Source: Mobula hypostoma
Lineage: Eukaryota
Assembly (NCBI RefSeq): GCF_963921235.1
Contig: NC_086107.1
Location: forward strand, 109,556,001 to 109,620,000
DNA: 64,000 nucleotides
Direction: 5' to 3'
The notes beneath the pieces were generated by a model. The model had not been told where the DNA came from. It made no database searches and was given only the letters and a program-made list of their open reading frames with translations. The first letter of the stretch is position 1. Every line of letters begins with the position of its first letter. Shown here one piece after another: positions 140 through 63,724 of the stretch. A program made the translations under genes and the position numbers.

Positions 140-1260
140 TGGGGTGGCGTAGTGAGCACAACACTCTACAGTACCAGCGGCCCGGGTTCAATTCCTGCTG
201 CAGCCTTGTGAGGAGTTAGTCATAGTCATAGTCATAGTCATACTTTATTGATCCCGGGGGAAATTGGTTTTCGTTACAGTTGCACCATAAATAATTAAAT
301 AGTAATAAAACCATAAATAATTAAATAGTAATATGTAAATTATGCTAGGAAATAAGTCCAGGACCAGCCTATTGGCTCAGGTTGTCTGACCCTCCAAGGG
401 AGGAGTTGTAAAGTTTGATGGCCACAGGCAGGAATGACTTCCTATGACGCTCTGTGTTGCATCTCGGTGGAATGAGTCTCTGGCTGAATGTACTCCTGTG
501 CCCACCCAGTACATTATGTAGTGGATGGGAGGCATTGACCAAGATGGCATGCAACTTGGACAGCATCCTCTTTTCAGACACCACCGTGAGAGAGACGAGT
601 TCCATCCCCACAACATCACTGGCCTTACGAATGAGTTTGTTGATTCTGCTGGTGTCTGCTACCCTCAGCCTGCTGCCCCAGCACACAACAGCAAACATGA
701 TAGCACTGGCCACCACAGACTCGGAGAACATCCTCAGCATCGTCTGGCAGATGTTAAAGGACCTCAGTCTCCTCAGGAAATAGAGACGGCTCTGACCCTT
801 CTTGTAGACAGCCTCAGTGTTCTTTGACCAGTCCAGTTTATTGTCAATTCGTATCCCCGGGTATTTGTAATCCTCCACCATGTCCACACTGATTCCCTGG
901 ATGGAAATAGGGGTCACCGGTACCTTAGCTCTGCTCAGGTCTACCACCAGCTCCTTAGTCTTTTTCACATTAAGCTGCAGATAATTCTGCTCACACCATG
1001 TGTCAAAGTTTACTACCGTAGCCCTGTACTCAGCCTCATCTCCCTTGCTGATGCATCCAACTATGGCAGAGTCATCCGAAAACTTCTGAAGATGACAAGA
1101 CTCTGTACGTTCTCCCTGTGGCTGGGTGGGTTTCCTCCGGGTGTTCCGGTTTCGCCCACAGCCCAAAGATGCACCGGTTAGTAGGTCAATTGGTCATTGT
1201 AAATTGTCCTGACATTAGGCTTGGGTTAAATTGGGGGTTGCTGAGCAACATGGATCAAAG
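140..1260 (+). mobile_element. tRNA-derived V-SINE (HE1-like) split by the Rex1-like insertion (halves ~140-217 and ~1104-1260)
   Basis: B-box gggttcaattcc; central gggtttcctccgggtgttccggtttc block; halves rejoin as aggagtt|tgtacgtt. Confidence 0.75.
218..1104 (-). mobile_element. 5'-truncated Rex1/Babar-like LINE (RT C-terminus, 3'UTR, (TATGAC)n tail)
   Basis: ORF 369..1166 has FSDDSAIVG...LNVKKTKELVVD...RLYFLRRL; AATAAA plus short tandem tail. Confidence 0.88.
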
Positions 1261-2470: not shown

Positions 2471-3310
2471 TAGATTAGATTAGATTAGATTCAATTTTGT
2501 TGTCATTGTGCCAAGTACAGATACAAAGCCAATGAAATGCAGTTAGCATCTGACCAGAAATGCAAAGTATAGTGTTATTTACAAAATAACTACGAATAAA
2601 AAAAGTGCTACAGCACACAAATATAAAAGTACTGAGACAGTACAATATGGATGCAATACTGCTTAGCACTGTGATGAGAGGTTCAGCAGGGTCACAGCCT
2701 CAGGGAAGAAGCTCTTCCTGTGCCTGCTGGTGTGGGAGCGGAGGCTCCTGTAGCACCTACCGGATGGGAGAAGAGTAAAAAGTCCATGGTTAGGGTGAGA
2801 TGCATCCCTGATAATGCTTTTCGCCCTGCCCAGGCAGCGTTTATGGTAGATGTTCTCAATGGTGGGCAACTGGGTGCCGATAATCTGCCGGGCAGTTTTC
2901 ACCACACGCTGGAGTGCTTTGCGGTCTGATACAGGAAAATTGCCATACCACACTGAGATGCAGTTGGTGAGTATGCTCTCAATGGTACAGTGGTAAAAGT
3001 CCGTCAGTATCCTGGGACAGAGGTGAGCTTTCTTGATGCTCCGCAGGAAATAAAGGCACTGTTGCACCTTTTTGATCAGGATGGAGGAGTTCAGGGACCA
3101 GGTGAGATCCTCGGAAATGTGGACACCAAGGAATTTGAAGCTTGATACACACTCCACTACACTTCTGTTGATGTAGATGGGGACGTGAGTGTGACTCCTG
3201 GCATGCCTGAAGCCCACAATGATCTCCTTGGTCCTCTGGGTGTTAAGGGCCAGGTTGTTGTCGGCACACCATGCAGCCAGGTGCTGGACCTCATCCCTGT
3301 GGGCCATCTC
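2471..3310 (-). mobile_element. Rex1/Babar-like LINE 3' fragment, second family, (CTAAT)n tail
   Basis: ORF 2663..3307 WCADNNLALNTQRTKEIIV...FKFLGVHIS...LLPSGR; microsatellite tail. Confidence 0.88.
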
Positions 3311-3594
3311 GTTACCTTTCTAAGTTACACTTTATTCAACATTCTGCTACTGTTTTACCTTTTTCCAGTTCAATGCACTGTGTAATGATTTGATCTGTAT
3401 TAACAATACACAAGACAAGTTTTTCCCTCAGTATATGCGACAACAGTATACAAATTTCAATGTCAAAATGCTGGAGGAACTCAGCAGGTCAGGCAGCATC
3501 TATGGAGGGGAATAAATGGTCAAAGTTTCGGGCTGATATCTTTAATCAGGACTTGATCAAATCCCTTGCATTAAACCAAGCCAAGTCAAGTTTA

Positions 3595-3833
3595 AAAACG
3601 CAGACACGAGGAAATCTACAGATGCTGGAAATTCAAGCAACACACACAAAAAATGCTGGTGAACGCAGCAGGTCAGGCAGCATCTATAGGAAGAGGTACA
3701 GTCGACCTTCTGGGCCGGGACCCTTCATCAGGACTAACTGAAAGAAGAAATAATAAGAGATTTGAAAGTCTTCCTCTTCCTATAGATGCTGCCTGACCTG
3801 CTGTGTTCACCAGCATTTTTTGTGTGTGTTGCT
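3595..3833. mobile_element. Penelope-like LTR fragment with inverted partial copy
   Basis: ~3637-3696 is the reverse complement of ~3772-3833; TSD caagt(c/g)aagttta at 3582-3594 and 3834-3846. Confidence 0.75.
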
Positions 3834-4029: not shown

Positions 4030-5070
4030 ATTTATAATAAATAGAACAGTCAATATAATATAGAGTACATTCAAGTCAGCGTGAGTTTATCCGTCTGATT
4101 GCCTGGTGGAAGAAGCTGTCCCGGAGCCTGTTGGTCCTGGCTTTTATGCTGCGGTACTGTTTCCCGGATGGTAGCAGCTGGAATAGATTATGGTTGGGAT
4201 GGCTTGGGTCCCTAACGATCCTACGGGCCCTTTTTACACACCTGTCCTTGTAAAGGTAAGGGGTGGGAAGTTCAAGGGGGATATTACAGGAAGGTTTTTT
4301 ACTCAGAGAGTGGTTGGTGTGTGGAATGCACTGCCTGAGTCAGTGGTGGAGGCAGATACACTAGTGAAGTTTAAGAGACTACTAGACAGGTATATGGAGG
4401 AATCTAAGGTGGCGGCTTATATGGGAGGCAGGGTTTGAGGGTCGGCACAACATTGTGGGCTGAAGGGCCTGTACTGTGCTGTACTATTCTATGTTCTATG
4501 TTCTATGTTAAATGTCCTGGATCATGGGAAGTTCACATCTACAGATGCACTGGGCTGTCCGCACCACTCTCTGCAGAGTCCTGTGATTGATGGAAGTACA
4601 GTTCCCATACCAAGCAGTGATGCAGCCAGTCAGGATGCTCTCAGTTGTGCCCCTGAAGAAAGTTCTTAGAATTTGGGGGCCCATACCAAACTTCCTCAAC
4701 CAACTGAGGTGAAAGAGGCACTGTTGTGCCTTTTTCACCACACAGCTGGTATGTACAGACCACGAAAGGACCTCGTGTGGATGCCGAGGAACTTAAAGCT
4801 GTTTACCTTCTCAAACGCAGATCCACTGATGTCAATAGGGCATCATTAGCCAGTCTCCATTCCTCCTGTAATCCACAATCAGCTCCTTCGTTTTTGCGAC
4901 ATTGAGGGAGAGGTTGTTTTCTTGACACCACTGTGTCAGAGAGATCACTTCTTCCTGTAGGCCACCTCGTTATTGTTTGAGTTAAAGCCAATCAATGTAG
5001 TGTCATCAGCAAATTTAATTAGCAGATTGGAGCTGTGGTGGCAATACAGTCATGGGTATACGGGGAGTAG
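4030..5070 (-). mobile_element. Decayed Rex1-like LINE interrupted by a + strand CR1 3' end (~4255-4507, (TTCTATG)n tail)
   Basis: ORF 4508..4741 ESILTGCITAWYGN; ORF 4190..4438 FFTQRVVGVWNALP. Confidence 0.8.
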
Positions 5071-5266: not shown

Positions 5267-6175
5267 ACGCAAACACGGGGAATTCTGCAGATGCTGGAAA
5301 TTCAAGCAACATGCATCAAAGTTACTGGTGAACGCAGCAGGCCAGGCAGCATCTCTAGGAAGAGGTACAGTCGACGTTTCGGGCCGAGACCCTTCGTCAG
5401 GACCAACTGAAAGAAGAGCTAGTAAGAAATTTGAAAGTGGGAAGGGGAGGGAGCGATCCAAAATGATAGGAGAAAACAGGAGGGGGAGGGATGGAGCCAA
5501 GAGCTGGACAGGTGATTGGCAAAGGGGATATGAGAGGATCATGGGACAGGAGGCTCAGGGAGAAAGAAAAGGAGGGGGGATAACCCAGAGCATGGGCAAG
5601 GGGTATAGTGAGAGGGACAGAGGGAGAAAAAGAAGAGAGAGAAAAAGAATGTGTGTATATAAATAAATAACGGATGGGGTACGAGGGGGAGGTGGGGCAT
5701 TAGCGGAAGTTTGAGAAGTCAATGTTCATGCCATCAGGTTGGAGGCTACCCAGACGGAATATAAGGTGTTGTTCCTCCAACCTGAGTGTGGCTTCATCTT
5801 TACAGTAGAGGAGGCCGTGGATAGACATATCAGAATGGGAAAGGGATGTGGAATTAAAATGTGTGGCCACTGGGAGATCCTGCTTTCTCTGGCAGACAGA
5901 GCGTAGGTGTTCAGCAAAGCGGTCTCCCAGTCTGCGTCGGGTCTCCCCAATATATAGAAGGCCATATCAGGAGCACCGGATGCAGTATATCACCCCAGCC
6001 GACTCACAGGTGAAGTGTTGCCTCACCTGGAAGGACTGTCTGGGGTCCTGAATGGTGGTAAGAGAGGAAATGTAAGGGCATGTGTAGCACTTGTTCCACT
6101 TACAAGGATAAGTGCCAGGAGGGAGATTGGTGGGGGGGGATGGGGGGGATGGGGGGGAGACGAATGGACAAGGGA
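5267..6175 (-). mobile_element. Penelope-like element 3' part: GIY-YIG endonuclease remnant plus pseudo-LTR
   Basis: Minus-strand translation FTCESAGVIYCIRCS*YGLLYIGETRRRLGDRFAEHLRSV...EQHLIFRLGSLQPDGMNIDFSNFR* (stop 5700-5702; one internal stop). Confidence 0.9.
5369..5404 (-). ncRNA. Minimal type-I hammerhead ribozyme motif with intact core
   Basis: GGUC-CUGACGA-A-GGGU(CUCG)GCCC-GAAA-CG-UC^GACU; predicted cleavage between 5373 and 5372. Confidence 0.75.
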
Positions 6176-7221
6176 TCAGGATTTCCTATCATAGAGGAGG
6201 CTGGATGGATGGGTGAGATTTTTTAATAATGCTAAGGGCCCCTCATTCACAGCACTCCTGATAAAAGTCCTCGATGGATGGTGGGAAGATCCCTGCAATC
6301 CTCTCAGCCATTCTCACGGTCATTTGTAGGGACTTCCAGTCCGATGGTCGGCTGCTCCCATACAGGATGGAGATGCAACTTGTCAGAACGATTTGGCCTA
6401 AACTCTGGTTCGGCCACACTTGAGTATTGTAATGCAGTTCTGGTTTCCCCAACACTGAGATGTTCCCACAACCTAAGGACTCTTCATTTCATGTTCTCAA
6501 TATTTATTACTTGTTTATTTATCATTATTTTTACTTTTTAGTATCTGCAGAGTTTGTGGTCTTTTGCACATTGGTTGTTTGTCCATCCTGTTGGGTGCGG
6601 TCTTTCACCGATTCTGTTGTTTTTCGCTGTATTTACTGTGAATGCCCACAAGAAAATGAATCTCAGGGTTGTATATAGTGACATATATGTACTTTGATAA
6701 TAAATTTACTTTGAAACAGCGTGTGCAGATTCACTGTTTAGATTCCAATGTTATAACAAAATCCACATCTCTGACAGTTGGCTGTAACGGATGTGGCTAT
6801 AAAGTGCTGGAGACTTGGAATTCTTTCCTTGTGGGTGGGGTAACCTTTCTGTCTACTTGTCTTTCAGTGAAGCGTATCCACCCCCAGCACATGCAGCCTG
6901 GAGACAGCTCTGGGAGTTGTCTTTACGTGCTATAGTTAGGAGGTTTTGCCACCTACTGGTGTGGAGCAGTATCACAGCCATCTTCAACTCTCCTCCACAC
7001 TTCCAATCTCACTGCAGACTGGACAAAATGAATCTGGCAAAGTGTGTGGTGTTTTTCTGATCACAAGTTGGGATCATCTACCCTCTTCTGAACGGTGGCG
7101 CAGTACTGTGGCAATTAGCCCAACGCTGCACCAATCACCAGCCTGGGATACCGCAATACTGTAGCAGTGGCCTAGGCACTTCTGGAGATTCACTTCCTGT
7201 CTCTGCTGTTTTATTAATGTA

Positions 7222-20165: not shown

Positions 20166-20703
20166 AGGGGACCAGGAAGGGATCGGAAGTGAAGGGGAGG
20201 GTCACTGTTGGATCCGGATGTTCCTGCGATCCAGAGGGCCTTCAGAAATTAAGAATCAGGCATAAAACTTGCTGCTGACAATCATTTTATCAAGCTTTAC
20301 AAGAGCCAAAACAGGAGGGAAGAAACTTGAAACCAGGGTATGAGGAACGAGGAAAAAAGTAGTAGTGTGGTCTTCTTGCACAAGACTACTGATAACATAA
20401 AATTCCATTGAAATTCCAACAGATAACAGTCAACCTATCAAATAGCCAGATTTGTGTAATGCGACACTCACCACAGAAACCAAAAAAACTTTCCAGAGAA
20501 ATAGAGACAACTGTAACCACTGAAAACTCAACAAAAAACCGCACAGATCCAGGTGATTGTATAGAAATACAAACAAGCACGAGGAAGTTAAACTACAAGA
20601 AAAATAATGATTCTGTACCACAACCCAACAGCCACCAAATCCTTGGGCAGTTCAGCTGATTGCATTCTTGACTGAGAAAGCAAAACACAGCCCAGCACCC
20701 AAG

Positions 20704-20807
20704 CAACACAGACAAAACGCTGGAGGAACTCAGCAGGCCAGGCAGCATCTATGGAGAGGAGGAAAAAAAGGTACAGTCGACATTTCGGGCCGAGACCCTT
20801 CGGCAGG
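20704..20807 (-). mobile_element. ~105-bp Penelope LTR fragment with hammerhead-like motif
   Basis: TSD acccaag at 20697-20703 and 20808-20814. Confidence 0.7.
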
Positions 20808-21710
20808 ACCCAAGTACTGGGGGAAAGCAACACTGCCCACCAACCCAACTACAACCTGTGCTGTGTCACAGGAGGCTCAACCACACAGAGGTCCATCACT
20901 GACACATCCAGGTAGGCACTGCATTCAGCATTCGGACAGTAATTAGGCAGGTGGGCATCTGTACTCAGGTAACAGAGGAGCCTGCTGACAGCCACATTCT
21001 AGGCCGCAGGAGTACGTGCTGAGGGACGAACTCTGCTATTCAGCCGACTCTGATTCTGTAGTTGTAGTTAGTTAGGAGGAAATAGTGCACAGGAATAGGT
21101 CCTTCAGACGACTGAGCTCATGTCAATCACATACCCATTTATACTAATACTATCCAACCCATTTTATCATAAAGATTAGCTTTATTTGACACGTGCATCT
21201 GAGCATACAGTGGAATGCATCAACGACCAACACAATCTGGAAGTGTGCTGGGGGCAGCCCGCAAGGCGCCAACACAGCATGCCCACAAATAACTAACCCT
21301 CAGCAGTACGTTGGAACGTGGGAGGAATCGCACGCACAGAGAGAGAGAGAGAGATAGAAATCATACAAACGTATTGCACTGTGCAGAGGTCTTTATATAT
21401 AGCGAGGGCACCCAAGACTTTTGCACAGAACTGTATTTGTCAGCATGGAGCAGAGAGCGAGATTGTAAATCCAGCGGGAGCAAAATTTGGGAATAGCAAG
21501 GCTGGAGTGCCGCGGAGGAGTGGGGAGGGGATGTGGGACAGGTGGCAGTGAGGGAGTGTCCGGGGGGGGGGGGGGGATGGCACGAGTGCAGACACACCCA
21601 GCTCTGAGACACCAGGCAAGGTCATTTGATTCCAAACAATCGGTTTAATGATCATTACAGAATGTCTCTCTGGTGCTTCCCTCACCCCTACCCTCTTCCC
21701 AACCATGATT

Positions 21711-33712: not shown

Positions 33713-34492
<780 letters not shown>

Positions 34493-35680
34493 CAACAATA
34501 AAGTCCCACAGCTTTCCCTGACTGCTTGCCCCCACACCCCCCGCCCCGAGGATTCTAATCCCACCTCACCCGCGTTTCCCAGCTTTTGACATAGTCAATC
34601 AATGAAATACCTACCTCTGCGGCAGTAAGCGTTAAACCATTGCAAAAACTCATCTACTTCAGTGGCAGGAAAATCTACCATCCTTACCTGGTCTGACCTC
34701 AGGGCGACCTCAGACTCCAAAATGGAGCTGGCTCCTAATGGACCTCTGAAACGACCCAAATTATCACCCATGCTGGAAGGGGAGAGGGACTGGCACGACA
34801 AGGGCCGAGCAGGAACACACACAGAATGCTGGAGGGACTCAGCAGGTCGGGCAGCATCCACGGAGGGAGTAGCCAACATTTCGGGCCGAGACTCTTTCTG
34901 CACACCAAGGGATGTGCAGTGCTGGCCACAATATCCAATGACAGACAAAATGGCAGCTCTAATAAAGTTTAGGAAATAGTGGACTATGTCAAGGATCAGA
35001 AAGAGAATTTATAAAAAACCCTCACCAGAAAATGGTTATCACAGGAGAGCCCCACTTTAAATGTATGGATGGAAATTACAATGGACATTTACAAAATGGA
35101 GAGGATAACAGCATCTGTTAATCATAAGTTGGAACAATTTGATTCATACTGGGAAAAATGGTTTAACTACACAAGACCTCATAGTCATAGGCCTGATTTT
35201 ATTCTCACAAGTCAATGACTATGTTGTAAAAAAAAATCACTCCCTACTTTGTACATAGTTTTCTTCTTTTGATTGTTCTTTCTTTCCTCTCCTTTCTATA
35301 AGTGTATACCTCGGATAAATATTATGTGGAGATTTGTGACAAATATATGTACAGTACCTGAAATACATCTTATGGAAATGTTTGTTTGATGAACTTCAAT
35401 AAAAAAATAAATTACAAAAAAAAAGAAAGAATTTATTATCACTGATGTACACTTTGTGGTTACTTTATTAGATACTTCCTGTGCCTAATAAAGTGGGCAC
35501 TGAGAGTGTATGTTCATGATCTTCTGCTGCTGTAGCCCAACCACTTCAGGTTTGATGTGCTGCGTGTTCAGAGATGCTGTTCCGCACGTCACTGTTATAA
35601 TGCATGGGTCATTAGGGTTGCTGTCACCCTCCCGTCTGCTTGAAGCAATCTGACCAACCTCCTCTGCCCTCTCTCATGAG

Positions 35681-36118
35681 CAAACAAGAGAAAATCTGCA
35701 GATGCTGGAAATCACACACACACACACACACAAAATGCTGGAGGTACTCAGCAGGCCAGGCAGCATCCACAGAAAAAGAGTAAACAGTCGAGGTTTCGGG
35801 CCGAGACCCTTCTTCAGGACTGCAGAGAGGAAAAAAAAGATGAGGAGTCAGAATAAGAAGGTGGGGGGAGGGGAGGGGAAGAGGAAGCATAAGGGAATAG
35901 GTGAAACCGGGGGAGAAGAGGTGAAGGGAAGAGCTGGGAAGTCGATTGGTGAAAGAGATACAGGGCTGGAGAAGGGAGAATCTGATAGAGGACAGAAGGC
36001 CATGCGAAGAAAGAAAAGGGGGAGGAGCACCAGAGGGAGGCGATGGGCAGGTAAGGAGATAAGGTGAGGGGGGGAATGGGAATGGTGAAGTAAAGGGGAG
36101 GGGGGTGGCAGATTTTCT
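35681..36118 (-). mobile_element. Penelope pseudo-LTR (hammerhead motif 35785-35822) inserted in a minus-strand Tc1 derivative (~35450-36640)
   Basis: CAGUC-CUGAAGA-AGGGUCUCGGCCC-GAAA-CC-UC-GACUG; purine-rich tract shared with 5267-5700. Confidence 0.8.
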
Positions 36119-42437: not shown

Positions 42438-43155
42438 ATCAAGAGAACACAGCAGCGCACGCTGGATAGTGGGTTGGTTACAGAGCACGAAACAGGCTCT
42501 TCCGCCCCTTCCAGCCACACCACCCAGCAACCTCGGATTTTAACCTGATCGCAGGACAATTTACAACGACCAACTAATCTACTAACATCTTTAGACTGTG
42601 GGAGGAAACCAGAGCACCCGGAGAAAACCCAGACGTTCCCCAGGGTGGGCGGACAGACTCCTTACAGATGGTGTCAGAATCGAACACCAAACTCCGACGC
42701 CCCCGGACTGTAATAACGCCCCGCCAACCACTACGCCTTTGCGGAAGGAGTCAAGGGACCCAACGCAATGGCACTGAGGCAGAAACGCCAATGTGACAAA
42801 CGAAGAGAAGGGAAGTCCCGAGTCAAAGTAAATTTAGGAGAAGTTTGTCTAGCGAGCCACTCTGTTCACGAGCAGTTGGGATTGAGTAACTAAACTTTGG
42901 CCTTATCATCACTGCCTGTGATCTAAAACAGACATTTTAAAATAACTTCTGCATTTCCTTCCTTTCCAGTCCAGAAGAAGGGTCTTGGCCAGAAACATCA
43001 ACTGTTTATTCTCACTCGTAGATGCTGCCTGATCTGCTGAGCTCCACCCAACACATTGCATAAATTGCTCTGGATTTCCAGCATCTTGTCTCTATGTCTT
43101 GGTTTGTGGAAGCAGTACAGTGAAATACATAAAATTACTAGAATTCTGTGCAAGT

Positions 43156-43157
<2 letters not shown>

Positions 43158-43230
<73 letters not shown>
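43158..43230. repeat. Compound (TA)n(CA)n microsatellite within a MITE TIR spacer
   Basis: Flanked by tgtgcaagtct and caagacttttgca. Confidence 0.9.
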
Positions 43231-44130: not shown

Positions 44131-44518
44131 AAAGAAAATATAAATAAACTGAAAAACAACCAAATTGAAAAAGATATATTGTGAAAATAAATAAAAATAA
44201 TACTGAGAACACTTGCAAAGGAATAGAAGAAACAAGGTATTTTTCAGATAAGTTCAGGTTTGAAGGGCCAGTCCTCATTCCAAAATGCAGTTTGCTTCAG
44301 TCACTAATTCACACTACCAGCTGGCTACAGGCCCAGCTCATGCATAGTTGTCTTGCCACTGGGATAGGCTCATACACGAGGTTGTGCAAAAGGGAAGTTT
44401 TACAGAGAAACCCCTTTCCTGCCAGCAAGCCCTCATGAACAAGTTCAGCCCACTCCTAGACTGGGTAGACCAGGCTTCAGCAGTCGTAGTGCAGGAACAC
44501 GACCTAATCTACGCCAGC

Positions 44519-44616
44519 AACACACCCACAAAATGCTGGTGGAACACAGCAGGCCAGGCAGCATCTATAGGAAGAAGTACAGTCGTCGTTTCGGGCCGAG
44601 ACCCTTCGTCAGGACT
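44519..44616 (-). mobile_element. ~100-bp Penelope LTR fragment ending at the hammerhead motif
   Basis: TSD-like ac(g/a)ccagc at 44511-44518 and 44619-44626. Confidence 0.7.
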
Positions 44617-48475: not shown

Positions 48476-49140
48476 AAACACAAGAGATTCTGCAGATGCT
48501 GGAAATCCAGATTATCACAGTCAAAATGCTGGAGGAACTCAGCAGGCCAGGCAGCAATCTATGACTCTTCATCAGGACTGAAAAGGAAAGGGCTAGACGC
48601 CAGAATAAGAAAGGTGGGGGGGAGGTGTAGGAGGCTAGCTGGAAGGTGATAGGTGAAGCCAGGGGGTGGGAGAGGTTAAGGGTTCAGAAGAAGGTATCTG
48701 ATAGGAGAGGAGAGTGGACCATGGGAGAGAGGGAAGAAGGAGGGGACCCAGGGAGAGGCAATAGACAGGCGAGGAGAAGAGGTAAGAGACCCAAGTGGGG
48801 AATTGAAGAGGAAAGGGGGAGGGGAAAATCAAGAGAAAAAAGTTAACATAAGGAGAAATCGATGTTCACACCATCAGGTTGGAGGCTGCTTAGATGAATT
48901 ACGAGGTGTTGCCCCTCCACCTTGAGACTGGCCTCATTGCGACAGAAAAGGAGGCCATGGACTGACATGTCAGAATAGGAACGGGGATAAGAATTAAATG
49001 TTTGGACAGTGGGAAATCCCACTTTTGGCGGATGGAGCGGAGAATCAGTTCACAACAGCTCTCTGCAACGTAGAGGAGGCCGCACCGGGAGCAGGGGACA
49101 CAACAGATGACCCCAGCGGATCCACAGGTGAAGCACTGCC
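48476..49140 (-). mobile_element. Older Penelope-like copy (GIY-YIG C-terminus plus LTR)
   Basis: Colinear with 5270-6025 (ccatcaggttggaggct, cacaggtgaag). Confidence 0.8.
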
Positions 49141-50560
49141 TCGATACTCACCTGCCACCGCGAAGTGACCGCTTGATCCCAAGCTCTACGCGCTAACCAT
49201 CAGTGCCCTACCACGCCACTGACCGAGCCGCAAGGCGGCGTAACGGCTGATCGCAGTCACTTTGCGGCTCCGACAACCAAAGTTCCAGCCCACGCAGCTG
49301 TACGTACATTCTCCCCGTGACTGCGCGGGTTTCCTCCGGGAGCTTGGATTTCCTCCCATGACTGCGTGGGTTTCCTCTGGGAGCTCTGATTTCCTCCCAC
49401 GTTCCAAAGACGTACCGGTTAGGGTTAGTGAGTCGAGGGCATGTTGCATTGGTTCCAGACACTTGCAGGCTGCCCAGCACAAACCTCACTGATTCGATTT
49501 GCCGCAAACAACGCCCTTCACTGGATGTTTCGAAGCACAGGTGACAAATACTCTCTTAACCCCTGAAACAACCTCGTGATTGCTAGAAGACACAACGGTC
49601 TAGAGCAGGGGGGGACTAAGCAGGTGTTATCAAGGGTGACCTGCAGGCTAGCGGAGGGAAGGAGTGCCTTACACCTCCTTCGTTAGAGATACACCTCCAC
49701 CCCGCCACCCAAGAGTCATAATTACGTCTTAGAAAAATATGTTGACAGGTTTGTGAATAGGAAAGATTTTGAGGGATATGGGATAAATGCAGAGGAGTGG
49801 GACTGGACTAGTCTACAAAGGTTAGCACTGATGAGCCGGAACAAAAGCCCCAGTACTCTGCTGTTTTACATGAAGTTCAAAGTACATTATCAATGTCTAC
49901 AGTATGCAACCCTGAGATTCAACTTCACCGCAGACAACCATGAAAGAAAGAATCACCATGGTATCAAACCCACACCCCCCCACACGCACAAAAAAAAACT
50001 CAAATCACGCAAACAGCAAAGAAAGCAAGAAACGTGAAATATAAAATAACCAAGAGTCCAGGCATATTCAGCTGAGTTCCATCTACCACGCGTCGTTCGT
50101 TATCTGCAGGCCACCCCAACCAAAATCGCATAAAATAGCAAAAAAAAAAGGAATGACCAGAAACACATCATAACGTGAACTACAGAGTCCAATCCACAAG
50201 CCATTATCATTAATGAATAAGGTTGTGCATAATTAGTTAATAACACATGATGTTAATTTGTTACGTATTGATATACAGCACGGATCAAAACATTCCAACC
50301 CTTCGAGCCGCGCTGCCGTGCAATTCCGGATTTAACCCTAGGCTAATCATAGGACAATTTACAACGACCAATTAGCCAACCATCCGGTACATCTTTGGAC
50401 TGTGAGTGGAAATACACACGTTCACAGGGAGAACATACATACTCCTTACAGGCAGATGTGAGAAACGAATCGGGGTCACTGGCCGTACTAACCTCTACAC
50501 GACCGTGTCACCCGGGGGGGTCCCAGGGAATGTGCCAGTATTTACTTATTGAGATACAGT

Positions 50561-51558: not shown

Positions 51559-52118
51559 CAGTGGACACTTTATTAGGTACACCTACTCTTTAATGCAAAA
51601 AACTAATCAGCCAATCATGTGGCAGCAACTCAATGCGTAAAAGCATGCAGACATGGTCAAGAGGTTCAGTTGTTGTCCAGACCAAACATCAGAACGGGGA
51701 AGAAAGGCGATCCAAGTGACTTTGACCGTGGAGTGATTGTTGGTGCCAGAAGGGGTGATGTGAGTACCTCAGAAACTGCTGATCTCCTGGGATTGTCACA
51801 CAAAACCGTCTCTAGAGTTTACAGAGAATGGTGTGAAAAACAAAACAAAAAAAAAATCCAGTGAGTGGCTGCTGTGTGGGTGAAAATGCCTTGTTAATGA
51901 GGGAGGTCAGAGGAGAATGGCCAGGCCGGTTCAAACTGACAGGAAGGTGACAGTAACTCAAATAACCACACGTTACAACAGTGGTGTGCAAGAGAGCATC
52001 TCTGAATGCACATATCGAACCTTGACGTGAATGGGCTACAGCAGCAAAAGACCATGAACATACACTCAGTGGCCACTTGATTAGGTACAGGAGGTACCCA
52101 ATAAAGTGGTACTGAGTG
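51559..52118 (+). mobile_element. Tc1-like derivative with a doubled (hairpin) right TIR
   Basis: HTH remnant ORF 51619..51864; extra left-type TIR from 52063 inverted against the terminal TIR. Confidence 0.85.
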
Positions 52119-52873
52119 TACATGTTTTAAAATACTCTATTTTAAGAACTGTAGACAGATTCATAAGGAAGAGGAGGAAAGTTTGGCGAGTAGCATTGAG
52201 GAAACATGACAAGGCATAATGATAAGAGTGAGATTGAGGGGGATAATGAATCTGCTAAAATGGGATGGCAGAACAGACTTGATGGGCCGAATGGCTTAAT
52301 TCTGCTCTCATGTCTGTGATTTTCTGGTTGAGAGGCAGAGTGCCTACTCCTGCATCCCCTTCCTGTGACATACACATGCATATCATTTACATCAGAGGGA
52401 TTAGCTTCCAGTTCCCTACAACATCTGGCGTACAGCTGACCTGCGCTCCATCTTCAAGCCAGAGGTCCGTGAGCCAGTCTTCATTAGGGAACCGGAGGAG
52501 GAAAAGGTCCACCTTAAATTTAAACTTCTCGGTGTTACCACATCAGAGGATCAGCACACGAGAGCCATCACAAAGAAAACGCAGCAGTGACTCCATTTTC
52601 CTGGAAGTCCGCAGAGATCTGGCAAGTCATCTAAAACTTTGACAAACTTCTGCAGATGGTGCATTGAGAGCATCCTGACTGGTGGCATCATGGCCTGGCA
52701 CGGAAACACCAATGCCCAGGTATGGAAAAATCTAAAAAAGGTGGAGCAAACAGCCCAGTCCGGCACAGGCAAAGCTCTCCCCACCTCTGAGCACATCTAC
52801 AAGCAACGCTGCCACAAGTAAGCAGCATCCATCTTCCAAGACCCCCACTATCCAGGCCGTCAGGAAGGAGTTA

Positions 52874-56825: not shown

Positions 56826-58094
56826 AGAAGAAAAACTTGTCTTGTATACAGTTGACACAGATCAGATCATTACACAGCGCACTGAGGTAGAACAAGGTAA
56901 AACAATAACAGAATAAAGTGCAACCACAGTGAAAGTGCGATGTGCAGGTAAACAATAGAAGTGCAAGATCATAACGAGGTAGATTGAGGGGTCAAGAGGG
57001 GTCTAGGGAACTCTTAACGAGTTGTAAAACCGCGGGGTAGAGACTGTCCTTGAGCTTAATGACGCACGCTTTCAGGCTTTGGCATCTTCTGCCCGATGGG
57101 AGGGGGAGAAGAGAATGTCCAGGGTAGGCAGGGCCTTCGATTACACAGTCTGCTTTACTGAGGCAACAAAACCGCGCACAGACGTTACATAACAGGACCG
57201 GGTTACTTATTAGTGACCTCTGTCAATTAGTTACTCTTCTCGTTGATGTTGCCGGACCAAGCCTTTCTGGCCCAATGAGGCCGCACCATTGCACCCATGT
57301 GACCAGTTAACCTATGAACCGGAAGGTGGGAGGAAAGCGGAGCACCCAGAGGAAACCTCCGCACGGACACAGAGAGAATGTACAAGCTCCTCACCGACGG
57401 TGGTGGGCATTCAACATGGGTCGCTGGCACTGAAATAGCTGCACGACGGGGCTGAGAAAAACCCTTCCACATGCAGCCAAAGCCAGACAGTTGCTGCTAA
57501 TTCCTGCAGGAGAACTTTCTGCTTTCCCAGAGGGTGATTGAAGCCAACAGCAGAGGTGCTCTAAAGGAGAATCGAGATAAAAACACCTGTTTTAGCCCCT
57601 CACTTTGAAGTGCCTCTATAAATCTCTCCTCAGTTCCAAAGAAAACATCTCCAGACTCCCCTTGTGGCCAAAATTCTCCTGCTCTGACAGCGTTCTCATA
57701 AATCTCCTCCAAATCCCCTCCAGGATCACAGTCAGCAAGTTGCAACAGCCTTTTAAATTCTGCAAGTGGACAATCCAACCAGGTGGAATGCTTGTTCTGT
57801 GTTATTGTATTTGCAAGATTGGCTACCTGCGTGCCCCCAAGGTATCTATCGCTCGCTGCTAGAACAAGTAGATAGGATTCTAGTCAGTTGGCTGTCGAGG
57901 CACATTAGCAAATCGTAGACGCGGGAGATTCTGTGGATCAATGCACACAAAATGCCAGAGGAACTCAGCAGATCAGGCAACATCTCTGGAGAGGAATAAA
58001 CAGTCCACACTTCAGGCCGAGACCCTTCATCAGGGCCGAAAAGGAAGGGGGAAGAAGCCAGAATAAGCAGGTGGGTTGGGGAGGAGTACAAACC

Positions 58095-58712: not shown

Positions 58713-59355
58713 CAAGCTGGCAGATGATAGGCGAGACCAGGTGAGGGGAGAGGTGGGGGAAACACCGAAGTGAAAAGCTGGGAGGTGATAGGGATCTTCA
58801 GATTTTGCAGATGCTGGAAATCAAGACCACCACACACAAAATGCTGAAGGAACTCAGGCAGCATCTACAGAGGGAAACAAACTATAGATGTTTTGTGTCA
58901 AGACCTTTCATCAGTTCCTCCAGCATCCTGAGAGAGTCACATCGGCATCCTTCATTAAGGGCCTCAGCCTGCTGCCCCCGCACACAACAGCTAGATTGAG
59001 TAGACAGCCAGAGACTTTACCCAGGGTAGAATTGGCTAATACAAGGGCGCATTATGTTAAGGTGACTGGAGGATTTGGAGGGTGGAGGGAGGTGCCAGAG
59101 GTAAGCTTTTTTTAAAAACACAGAGTGGTAGGTGCATAGAATGCCCTGCCAACGCTAATGGTGGTGGTAGATTCATTAAGGACATTTGAGACCCTGAGAT
59201 AAGCATATGGATTAAAAAAAGTGGGGGGCTAGGTCAGATAGAAGGGTTAGATTAATCTTAAGAGTAGGTTATAAGATTACACATTGTCATGGGCTGCAGG
59301 GTCTGCACTGTGAAGTAATGTTTTACATTCTAAAAAGAACAAATTTCACAACATA

Positions 59356-63151: not shown

Positions 63152-63724
63152 ACACGCACAGAATGCTGGTGGAACGCAGCAGGCTAGGCAGCATCTATAG
63201 GAAGAGGTACAGTTGAGATGAAGCTATACTCAGGTTGAAGGAACAGCACCTCATATTCCGTCTGGGTAGCCTCCAACCTGATGGCATGAACATTGACTTC
63301 TCTAACTTCCGTTAATGCCCCTCCTCCCCTTCTTACCCCATCCCTAATTTATTATTTATTTTCTCTCTCTTTCCCTCTCGCAATAACTCCTTGCCTGTTC
63401 TCCATCTTCTTCTGGTGCTCCCCTCCCCCTTTCTTTCTTCCAAGGCCTTCCGTCCCATAATACTCCCCCTTCTCCAGCCTTGTATCCCAGCTCTTGGCTC
63501 CATCCCTCCCCCTCCTGTCTTCTCCTATCATTTCAGATCTCCCTCTCACCCTCCCACTTTCAAATCTCTTACTATCTCCTTTCAGTTAGCCCTGACGAAG
63601 AGCCTCGGCCCGAAACGTCGACTGTACCTCTCCCCATCGATGCTGCCTGGCCTGCTGTGTTCCACCAGCATTTTGTGTGTGTCTTGCTTGAATTTCCAGC
63701 ATCTGCAGATTTCCTCGTGTTTGA
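63152..63724 (+). mobile_element. Penelope-like insertion with 5' inverted LTR piece, inside a minus-strand CR1
   Basis: TSD ggactccca at 63143-63151 and 63725-63733; GIY-YIG tail EQHLIFRLGSLQPDGMNIDFSNFR*; hammerhead core 63588-63624. Confidence 0.9.

What the first reader, a model, noticed from the sequence alone, without database searches (positions are those of the whole stretch)
5369..5404. Family of about 12 minimal hammerhead ribozyme motifs carried by Penelope-like LTRs
Seen: a ~36-nt consensus (A/G)GUC-CUGANGA-A-GGGU(CUCG)GCCC-GAAA-CG-UC^GACU recurs at ~3520, 3700, 5369, 20776, 34068, 34355, 35785, 42967, 44580, 58001 and 63588, with partial copies at ~34875, 48560 and 58890. It contains the whole hammerhead core, an extra A after A9, stem I and stem II. 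Stem III is reduced to the palindrome ACGU. The 5369 copy has an intact core and lies downstream of a GIY-YIG ORF. Known: Penelope-like elements encode minimal type-I hammerheads that can cleave as dimers. Inferred: this is an abundant elasmobranch ribozyme-bearing PLE family that an ORF scan cannot see; whether this family has been described is unknown to me.
Basis: partly seen in the sequence, partly recalled or inferred. Interest (0 to 1): 0.8.

Follow-up and report, generated by a model that had tools for sequence, protein, structure and literature searches.

The report
Hammerhead ribozyme motifs in Penelope-like retroelements
The repeated 36-base motif is a real minimal hammerhead ribozyme motif carried near the 3' end of a very abundant Penelope-like retrotransposon, a pairing already described for fishes, amphibians and reptiles, so this is a new example of a known thing.

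Summary
Observation confirmed. On the minus strand, 5405..5368 reads helix I / CUGACGA / A / GGGUCUCGGCCC / GAAA / CG / UC^GACUG. That is a complete type-I hammerhead core with stem III reduced to the palindrome ACGU and the cut at 5373|5372. Only this copy is fully intact; 2 more keep the core.

The motif lies 296 nt after the stop of a GIY-YIG ORF, in a 5'-truncated Penelope-like element (6175..5268, minus strand). Full-length tandem copies elsewhere in the 3.48-Gb genome show RT + CX4CXXC linker + GIY-YIG, then the hammerhead, then a ~100-nt 3' segment, then the next ORF. The unit is 3,512 nt.

Exact 31-mers of the motif number 7,580 with C11.1 and 43,114 with U11.1. Subfamilies with unalignable flanks share the hammerhead block.

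This matches the "min-HHR" of metazoan PLEs (Cervera & de la Peña 2014), so it is a new member of a known kind. No cleavage or RNA evidence could be obtained, Rfam models do not detect it, and covariation is weak.

Three points remain unexplained:
- The dominant, ORF-intact subfamily has a G10.1·U11.1 wobble.
- The 5' ends of copies pile up at the ribozyme's 5' edge, not at the cut site.
- A splice-acceptor-like tract abuts helix I.

The parts
5268..6175 (-). 5'-truncated copy of a Penelope-like element: last ~460 nt of the ORF, 3' UTR, hammerhead, 3'-terminal segment
   Evidence: 911 nt aligned at 90.2% identity to L026 2549-3447, a tandem full-length copy elsewhere in the genome
5700..5966 (-). 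Remnant of the C-terminal GIY-YIG endonuclease ORF (...YIGETRRRLGDRFAEH...LGSLQPDGMNIDFSNFR*)
   Evidence: ORF list. Pfam GIY-YIG is weak on this fragment (14 bits). On the full-length relative it scores 33.3 bits against a cut-off of 22.6.
5406..5699 (-). C/T-rich 3' UTR, the upstream part of the pseudo-LTR. It ends in a polypyrimidine tract + CAG just 5' of helix I.
   Evidence: Alignments
5368..5405 (-). Intact minimal type-I hammerhead motif. Helix I: 5405-5401 pairs with 5372-5368. CUGACGA: 5400-5394. Unpaired A: 5393. Helix II hairpin: 5392-5381. GAAA: 5380-5377. CG: 5376-5375. U16.1 and C17: 5374-5373. Predicted cut: 5373|5372.
   Evidence: Sequence; pattern matches; descriptor; pair counts
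5268..5367 (-). 3'-terminal segment after the ribozyme. It contains GATGCTGCCTGGCCTGCTG and ends ...GTGTTTGCG, which is the 3' boundary of insertions.
   Evidence: Alignments. The 19-mer occurs 171,977 times in the genome and 0 times in the control.
3517..3553 (-). Decayed copy (CTGATTA; helix II lost)
3599..3768 (-). Short copy. The motif is at 3698-3734 with GAAA changed to AGAA. It lies head to head with the inverted partial 3' segment at 3773-3833 (+).
20700..20809 (-). Short copy; motif at 20773-20809 with A6 changed to C and stem III reading AUGU
34067..34103 (-). B-type copy with a broken core (GGCTCCAAAT)
34355..34483 (+). B-type copy; motif at 34356-34392 with A6 changed to G and stem III reading ACCU
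34861..34909 (-). Partial, decayed copy
35680..35821 (-). B-type copy; motif at 35784-35820. The core is intact, helix I has 6 bp, and stem III reads ACCU (not palindromic).
42955..43086 (+). B-type decayed copy (CAGAAGA, CCAGAAAC, ACATC)
44516..44616 (-). Short copy that begins at the 5' edge of the motif; U16.1 changed to A (GAC in place of GUC)
48476..49142 (-). Diverged PLE fragment: an endonuclease-coding part (49142-48852, 69.6% identity), only the 5' half of the motif, and the 3' segment (48562-48476)
57961..58037 (-). B-type copy with a broken core (GAAG, GUG)
58887..58918 (-). Old decayed copy
63208..63723 (+). 5'-truncated copy (76.6% identity). The motif is at 63589-63625 with an intact core, ACGU, and mismatches in helices I and II. 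An inverted partial 3' segment lies at 63164-63216 (-).

Best explanation
[quoted passage not shown] Shown: each unit of the element is an ORF (reverse transcriptase, CX4CXXC linker, GIY-YIG endonuclease), then ~300 nt of C/T-rich UTR, then the 37-nt hammerhead, then a ~100-nt 3' segment where insertions end. In tandem copies the next ORF starts ~35 nt further on, so the hammerhead sits in the pseudo-LTR. The window holds 5'-truncated and decayed insertions of at least two subfamilies. Inferred from published work on other PLEs: a single copy cannot form stem III. Two copies pair through ACGU to build a double hammerhead that cuts after GUC, leaving 2',3'-cyclic phosphate and 5'-OH ends. The likely helpers are the element's own protein or other factors. 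The likely outcome is processing of multimeric or read-through transcripts. I put about 0.9 on the identity (a PLE min-HHR motif) and about even odds that cleavage happens in vivo and matters for the element.
For: Sequence of the focal copy: full core, unpaired A between A9 and G10.1, a G10.1-C11.1 pair, a 4-bp helix II, a 5-bp helix I, and an ACGU palindrome. These are the four unsought features that Cervera & de la Peña 2014 give for PLE min-HHRs. Chance is excluded by the shuffles.
Context: a GIY-YIG ORF lies upstream. Tandem full-length copies have 935-1003-aa open frames and an HHR-to-HHR spacing of 3,512 nt. Inverted 5'-truncated partners occur, as is typical of PLEs (Craig et al. 2021, passages).
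Genome counts: 7,580 and 43,114 exact 31-mers, with 0 in the reversed controls.
Constraint above copy level: subfamilies A, B and D have different sequence on both sides of the motif but the same core and helices. Contigs of three coded organisms (runs X5, X9, X19) match the A-type reference only over 3311-3347, which is the hammerhead, and run on unlike on both sides (table 7).
Sampled copies: of 85 copies found through the 3' segment, 59 have a complete motif and 33 of those 59 have an intact core. The 85 exclude 9 copies that had been chosen by the HHR itself and include ORF-chosen loci. 90.8% of helix cells are paired, against 15-47% when the partner is slid.
Published activity: an Anolis PLE hammerhead cleaves in vitro only with the element's protein, with a C3/G8 rescue control (Frangieh et al. 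2024, main text).
Against: No cleavage, RNA-end or expression data exist for this family. No Rfam hammerhead model matches at gathering score or at E<=10, either on the whole window or on 5340-5430 alone. Covariation is weak: 3 of 9 pairs have a two-sided change, reached by 101 of 500 shuffles, and most variation is one-sided. Thermodynamic folding gives no support. The monomer z-score is 0.21 and its MFE pairs GACG of the core with CGUC. The double hammerhead scores -15.3 kcal/mol against a dimer MFE of -33.9. The most prolific subfamily, which includes the ORF-intact copies, has U at 11.1, giving a G.U wobble in place of the conserved G10.1-C11.1 pair. In 42 unselected A-type copies the 5' ends cluster at the motif's 5' edge (15 of 42), not at the cut site. 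In Anolis, hammerhead mutants did not affect insertion in vitro and no RNA-seq ends were found at the cut site. PLE clades without hammerheads also proliferate (Craig et al. 2021).
Confidence: 0.8

Rival explanations
1. The block is kept as a structural or protein-binding RNA element of the PLE, not as a working self-cleaver. [quoted passage not shown] Its hammerhead core would be an inherited form with little or no catalysis.
For: 15 of 42 unselected A-type copies have their 5' end within 3302-3322, at the motif's 5' edge. Many head-to-head pairs meet there. Only 6 of 42 end between 3326 and 3350, around the cut. The dominant subfamily carries G10.1.U11.1: 43,114 exact copies against 7,580. 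In vitro activity of metazoan min-HHRs is low, and insertion does not depend on the hammerhead in Anolis.
Against: Every core base needed for catalysis is kept in the majority sequence of all subfamilies seen, although five CpGs make the motif decay fast. A mere binding site would not need CUGANGA, GAAA, UH and a palindrome together. The G.U wobble still closes helix II. The Anolis PLE hammerhead does cleave, with proper mutant controls.
Confidence: 0.2
2. Most copies are not PLE fragments. They are a separate non-autonomous, retrozyme- or SINE-like element (hammerhead plus ~100-nt 3' segment, ~135 nt) mobilised in trans by the PLE, possibly through small circular RNAs.
For: The 3' segment is far more numerous (171,977 exact 19-mers) than ORF-bearing copies. 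Many copies begin at the hammerhead. A 2026 preprint derives vertebrate non-LTR retrozymes from PLE pseudo-LTRs and reports them in its one chondrichthyan (abstract and Results read).
Against: Short copies are identical in sequence to the matching part of the long ones. The 5' ends form a continuum from the ORF to the 3' segment, as with ordinary 5' truncation. No head-to-tail array of short units was seen in the window or loci. Direct neighbours were 460-500 nt or 3.5 kb apart. The 19-mer has no CpG, whereas the 31-mer has five, so the count gap is partly decay.
Confidence: 0.15
3. Chance resemblance to a hammerhead within a repeat.
For: A repeat family counts as one ancestral event, so copy number alone proves nothing. 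Rfam does not recognise the motif.
Against: The motif matches 11 fixed core bases plus two helices, the bulged base and the palindrome. It lies at the place where all canonical PLEs carry hammerheads. The descriptor gives 0.005 hits per shuffled window. The block is shared by subfamilies with unlike flanks.
Confidence: 0.01

Closest known systems
min-HHRs of metazoan Penelope-like elements (Cervera & de la Peña 2014, Mol Biol Evol; PMC4209133, main text read)
   Same: Type-I topology, short helix I (4-5 bp), an unpaired base between A9 and G10.1, stem III reduced to a palindrome so that only a dimer can be active, location in both pseudo-LTRs, thousands of dispersed and mostly truncated copies, and pairs on opposite strands close together.
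   Different: Helix II here has 4 bp with a 4-nt loop, whereas Schistosoma has 7-8 bp. The dominant subfamily has G10.1.U11.1 where that paper stresses a conserved G10.1-C11.1. Copy number is higher than the ~4,000 (coelacanth) and ~9,000 (Xenopus) quoted there. No cartilaginous fish appears in that paper's main text; its supplements were not read.
Hammerhead of the Anolis Poseidon element PAc (Frangieh et al. 2024, Mob DNA; PMC11167929, main text read)
   Same: The hammerhead lies at the junction of pseudo-LTR and ORF. Insertions end about 100 nt downstream of the ribozyme, at an internal start site of reverse transcription. Elements are in tandem.
   Different: In PAc the ORF starts inside helix II and reverse transcription starts 111-118 nt into the ORF. 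Here insertions end ~35 nt before the ATG. PAc belongs to Penelope/Poseidon, which lacks the linker zinc finger. This element has CX4CXXC, so its endonuclease is Neptune-type (motif read; definition from Craig et al. 2021). No phylogeny was made.
Animal non-LTR retrozymes (Cervera & de la Peña 2020; Li, Clavereau & Pollet, bioRxiv 2026)
   Same: Type-I hammerheads with a weak stem III, linked to PLE pseudo-LTRs, non-coding short copies.
   Different: Retrozymes are head-to-tail arrays of short units that give circular RNAs. Here copies are dispersed or head to head, and the tandem unit is the 3.5-kb coding element. For the 2020 paper I saw only the search listing and abstract.
Canonical type-I hammerheads (Schistosoma Sm-alpha, newt satellite 2; Rfam Hammerhead_1, family name recalled)
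   Same: Same catalytic core and open helix I; the newt and viroid forms also act as double hammerheads.
   Different: No loop-loop contacts between helices I and II, no stem III hairpin, and no match to any Rfam model at E<=10.

Membership tests
Hammerhead ribozyme, minimal type-I form of PLEs | Catalytic core C3-U4-G5-A6-N7-G8-A9 ... G12-A13-A14 ... A15.1/U16.1-H17 | tested here: met
   5400-5394 CUGACGA, 5380-5377 GAAA, 5374-5373 UC. 33 of 59 complete sampled copies keep it.
Hammerhead ribozyme, minimal type-I form of PLEs | Helix I closing the motif (open end) and a helix II hairpin | tested here: met
   Helix I has 5 pairs including 2 G.U; helix II has 4 pairs. 87.2% and 95.3% of cells are paired in 59 copies.
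Hammerhead ribozyme, minimal type-I form of PLEs | G10.1-C11.1 pair | tested here: inconclusive
   Met in the window copy at 5369-5404 and in 7,580 exact genomic copies. It is replaced by G.U in 43,114 exact copies and in the ORF-intact subfamily.
Hammerhead ribozyme, minimal type-I form of PLEs | Unpaired base between A9 and G10.1; palindromic 15.x-16.x in place of a stem III hairpin | tested here: met
   A at 5393 is invariant in 59 of 59 copies. ACGU is present together with an intact core and intact helices in 19 of 59 copies.
Hammerhead ribozyme, minimal type-I form of PLEs | Compensatory changes in the helices | tested here: inconclusive
   3 of 9 pairs have a two-sided change (5 cells), reached by 101 of 500 shuffles. 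The changes are mainly U.G to C-G and G-C to G.U. All sequences come from one genome and one family.
Hammerhead ribozyme, minimal type-I form of PLEs | Match to a curated hammerhead covariance model | tested here: not met
   No Rfam hit at gathering score or at E<=10. This is expected for a motif without a stem III hairpin.
Hammerhead ribozyme, minimal type-I form of PLEs | Site-specific self-cleavage after H17 | not testable with these tools
   No RNA reads were available.
Penelope-like element, endonuclease-bearing (Neptune-type endonuclease) | [quoted passage not shown] | tested here: met
   GIY-YIG scores 33.3 bits (cut-off 22.6) at residues 906-981. RVT_1 scores 24.4 bits, below its cut-off of 29.6. 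1,704 relatives have E<=1e-10, and most of the 120 listed carry PF00078.
Penelope-like element, endonuclease-bearing (Neptune-type endonuclease) | Cysteines between GIY and YIG (CCHH finger), and a CX2-5CxxC finger in the linker (Neptune/Nematis, absent in Penelope/Poseidon) | tested here: met
   ...YPCKRNKCYTCPY... and VIYCVRCSRCGLLYIGET... in the translation. Definitions are from Craig et al. 2021. No tree was built, so the clade is inferred.
Penelope-like element, endonuclease-bearing (Neptune-type endonuclease) | Pseudo-LTRs from tandem copies, and inverted 5'-truncated partners | tested here: met
   L026 holds a tandem pair. There are 8 head-to-head pairs among 85 sampled copies, and window pairs at 3599-3833 and 63164-63723.
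Non-LTR retrozyme | Head-to-tail arrays of short non-coding units, each with a hammerhead, giving circular RNA | tested here: not met
   No such array is present in the window or in ~330 kb of loci. Arrays were not searched genome-wide, and circular RNA is not testable here.

The most novel reading that the evidence does not exclude
In this family the hammerhead fold marks where the template RNA or the cDNA ends, rather than working mainly by cutting. The subfamily with intact ORFs fixed a G10.1.U11.1 wobble in place of the near-universal G10.1-C11.1 pair and still reached more than 43,000 exact copies. More than a third of unselected copies, and the arms of head-to-head pairs, end within ~10 nt of the ribozyme's 5' edge and not at the cut site. 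A conserved polypyrimidine-CAG tract abuts helix I in every subfamily. Together these would point to a role of the ribozyme region in defining the 5' end of the transcript (promoter, splice acceptor or reverse-transcription stop), with cleavage dispensable.
Probability: 0.15. Interest if true: 0.6.

Novelty: new member of a known kind. Interest (0 to 1): 0.3.

Why it matters
It adds a cartilaginous-fish-type genome to the hosts in which PLE hammerheads are massively amplified: about 50,000 exact-core copies and about 172,000 3' segments in 3.5 Gb. Rfam-based annotation misses all of them. Because the family is young (open 935-aa frames) and has subfamilies that differ at 11.1, it offers a natural test of whether catalysis matters for PLE spread, a question the literature leaves open. 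It does not change what is known about the kind of element.

Tried and rejected
- Rfam at gathering score and at E<=10 gave no hammerhead match.
- Single-strand folding and cofolding: the hammerhead and the double hammerhead are not the minimum-energy structures, and the z-score is 0.21. This is uninformative for a small ribozyme. My first dimer bracket string was wrongly nested and was redone.
- RNA evidence: no RNA holder is listed. The four runs laid are contigs of unknown kind, so starts, ends, strand and splicing cannot be read. Their depth step after 3447 was not used as evidence.
- Joints to 3311 from several upstream places (table 5) are 'between: not known'. They fit subfamily replacement of the UTR, not splicing, so I rejected them as intron evidence.
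- Copy-level test of 'core better kept than flanks': non-CpG core bases match in 95.7% of cells and non-CpG stem bases in 96.1%, while CpG positions match in 85-90%. Decay after insertion and five CpGs confound this test, so subfamily comparison was used instead.
- Lünse, Weinberg & Breaker (RNA Biol) is not held. I saw only what a 2019 review says of it.
- Earlier findings of this scan: nothing.
A 50-kb sample and tail-anchored loci were used instead. Loci of the B-type tail could not be cut out, so subfamilies B and D rest on few copies.
- A fuzzy regex script timed out.

Full report
**What is there.** Read on the minus strand, 5405..5368 is UGGUC-CUGACGA-A-GGGUCUCGGCCC-GAAA-CG-UC^GACUG. It holds every conserved base of the hammerhead core. 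Helix I has 5 pairs (5405-5401 with 5372-5368, two of them G.U). One unpaired A follows A9. Helix II has 4 pairs and a CUCG loop. In place of a stem III hairpin there are the four bases ACGU, which are their own reverse complement.

**Recurrence in the window.**
- The 31-mer with up to 3 mismatches occurs 6 times, against 0 in 100 shuffles.
- A looser core pattern occurs 8 times, against a shuffle mean of 0.29.
- A strict descriptor of my own finds 2 instances, against a mean of 0.005 in 200 dinucleotide shuffles.
- Most copies are decayed. Of 10 window copies with a complete alignable motif, 3 keep the core, and only the copy at 5369-5404 also keeps both helices and the palindrome.

**The carrier.** The motif lies 296 nt after the stop of an ORF remnant that ends ...YIGETRRRLGDRFAEH...LGSLQPDGMNIDFSNFR (5700..5966, minus strand). 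The whole stretch 6175..5268 aligns over 911 nt at 90.2% identity to a longer copy elsewhere in the genome.

The window's genome is 3.48 Gb in 200 contigs. A protein fragment of the element has 134,397 first-look candidates, and several places have open frames of 933-935 aa.

Locus L026 holds two units in tandem:
- an open frame of 1,003 aa ending at 3010;
- the hammerhead at 3312-3348;
- the end of the region shared by insertions at about 3447;
- the next ATG at about 3481;
- the next hammerhead 3,512 nt after the first.

On that frame Pfam gives GIY-YIG at 33.3 bits (cut-off 22.6) and RVT_1 at 24.4 bits, below its cut-off of 29.6. The translation shows CKRNKCYTC before the nuclease, and cysteines between GIY and YIG. 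By the definitions quoted in Craig et al. 2021 (passages), this is the Neptune/Nematis type of PLE endonuclease. I made no tree.

A database search found 1,704 relatives at E<=1e-10. The best named ones are two uncharacterised proteins of a bamboo shark at 72% and 68% identity. Next come sea urchin, molluscs, a coral and a turtle at about 50%.

**Abundance and subfamilies.**
- The form with U at 11.1 has 43,114.
- With the 18-nt prefix of the subfamily that includes the ORF-intact copies, the counts are 22,350 (U) against 1,742 (C).
- Of the 11 loci found through the protein (L014-L024), 10 have a motif downstream of the ORF, and all 10 have U. L014 showed no 3' segment within the locus.
- A CpG-free 19-mer of the 3' segment occurs 171,977 times. 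A B-type 31-mer of that segment occurs 11,056 times.

In the window and the loci at least three flank types exist. Type A has ...CTCTTCYTTCAGTTA before the motif and ACCTCTTCC after it. Type B has ...CCTTCCTTTCCA before and TTATTCCTCTCC after. Type D has ...CTTCTTTCTTCA before and ATCGTTTCC after, and its loop II reads UCCG. The hammerhead itself is the same in all three.

Independently, contigs of three coded organisms from three studies (runs X5, X9, X19) match the A-type reference only from 3311 to 3347 and run on unlike on both sides. There are 38, 3 and 15 loose ends before 3311, and 51, 5 and 13 behind 3347 (table 7). The 3' segment (GATGCTGCCTGRCCTGCTG...) is kept as well.

**Copy-level numbers.** I collected 94 copies through the 3' segment (up to 3 substitutions) in the window and in all loci. 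I dropped the 9 copies that had been chosen by the hammerhead itself. Of the remaining 85, 59 have a complete motif, 12 a partial one and 14 none. These 85 include loci chosen by the ORF.

Of the 59 complete motifs, 33 keep the core, 21 also keep all helix pairs, and 19 also keep ACGU. Non-CpG core positions match in 95.7% of cells and non-CpG stem positions in 96.1%. CpG positions match in 85-90%. Essential G8 and G12 both sit in CpGs, so the motif decays faster than CpG-free flanks. For that reason a copy-level comparison cannot show selection.

**Structure tests.** On the 59 copies, 90.8% of helix cells are standard pairs, against 15-47% when partners are slid. Because the structure was derived from these sequences, this contrast is biased in the structure's favour. 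Real covariation is scarce: 3 of 9 pairs have a two-sided change, reached by 101 of 500 shuffles. The frequent changes are one-sided (outer helix I U.G to C-G in type B; G-C to G.U at 10.1-11.1).

Rfam finds no hammerhead at any threshold tried. Folding energies do not favour the hammerhead or the double hammerhead. Support therefore rests on the motif match, its context and the literature, not on covariation or energy.

**Comparison with what is known.** Cervera & de la Peña 2014 (whole main text read) describe exactly this kind of motif. They report minimal type-I hammerheads in both pseudo-LTRs of all PLEs examined. Their features are a short helix I, a base between 9 and 10.1, G10.1-C11.1 and palindromic 15.2-16.2. 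The motifs are thought to act as dimers, are poorly active in vitro, and occur in thousands of mostly solitary copies in fishes, coelacanth, Xenopus and reptiles. A 2019 review (passages) summarises the dimer evidence of Lünse et al.; that paper is not held.

Frangieh et al. 2024 (main text) show for an Anolis PLE that:
- reverse transcription starts inside the RNA about 100 nt downstream of the hammerhead;
- the ribozyme cleaves only with the element's protein;
- core mutants do not change insertion in vitro;
- no RNA-seq ends lie at the cut site.

Craig et al. 2021 (passages) note that hammerheads are universal in canonical PLEs but absent from the prolific Naiads, and that their function is unclear. 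PLEs are reported in elephant shark and whale shark genomes (passages).

Hammerheads of cartilaginous fishes were not found in my searches. 'hammerhead ribozyme' + 'Penelope' + 'shark' gave one paper, in which 'shark' refers only to the shape. So the kind is known, and this family is a new member.

**How it most likely works.** Shown here are the anatomy and the conservation. The rest is inferred from the cited work. The pseudo-LTR is transcribed as part of multimeric or read-through RNA. Two hammerhead copies pair through ACGU and exchange helix I strands to form a double hammerhead. Each then cuts after GUC, probably aided by the element's protein. I give the identity about 0.9 and a real role of cleavage about even odds.

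**What does not fit neatly.**
1. The most successful subfamily has a G.U wobble at 10.1-11.1.
2. Among 42 A-type copies from sets not chosen by hammerhead or ORF, 5' ends fall as follows: 15 at 3302-3322, 7 at 3244-3279, 6 at 3326-3350 and 14 further upstream. The motif starts at 3312 and the cut is at 3342|3343. Many of the 15 are arms of head-to-head pairs, and exact motifs on opposite strands lie 39-74 nt apart in the genome listing. Cleaved RNA is therefore not the usual template. [quoted passage not shown]
3. A polypyrimidine tract plus CAG abuts helix I in every subfamily. This resembles the intron end that maps to helix I in Drosophila virilis Penelope.

None of these three points could be tested without RNA data.

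**Verdict.** Interest is modest. The three oddities above are the only leads beyond the known.

Noticed in passing
Genome-wide; L014-L026: The dominant subfamily, which includes the copies with open 935-aa frames, carries U at position 11.1 (G10.1.U11.1). There are 43,114 exact 31-mers with U against 7,580 with C.
   Followed up: partly
L026 3302-3322 equivalents; window 44616, 3768/3773; loci L033, L040, L041, L044, L048, L027: 5' ends of short copies and of head-to-head pairs cluster at the 5' edge of the hammerhead (15 of 42 unselected A-type copies), not at the predicted cut site.
   Followed up: partly
Window 5406-5420 (-), 35822-35840 (-), 34335-34355 (+); the same place in all loci: A polypyrimidine tract followed by CAG lies directly 5' of helix I in every subfamily and looks like a 3' splice site. 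No RNA data were available to test it.
   Followed up: no
Window 369-1193 (-), 2663-3319 (-), 4076-4339 (-), 4508-4792 (-), 6243-6488 (-): Several ORF remnants of non-LTR (LINE-type) reverse transcriptase C-terminal regions (for example ...FSDDSAIVG...LNVKKTKELVVD...) surround the PLE copy, so the window is a mosaic of retroelement fragments.
   Followed up: no
Window 52058-52123 (-) and 35445-35511 (+): Two ~67-nt perfect-stem hairpins match Rfam mir-9256 weakly (35.5 and 27.2 bits; gathering score 80). They are probably a short inverted-repeat element present in two or more copies.
   Followed up: no
Window 43141-43228: A (TG)n/(TA)n microsatellite directly follows the decayed copy at 42955-43086. 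It gives spurious weak matches to mir-297, mir-466 and mir-1277.
   Followed up: no
L026 6836 and 7335; G000:C1:5927975 and 5928435: Direct neighbours of hammerheads lie 460-500 nt apart, which is about one pseudo-LTR length. This suggests insertion of truncated copies into or next to an existing pseudo-LTR.
   Followed up: no
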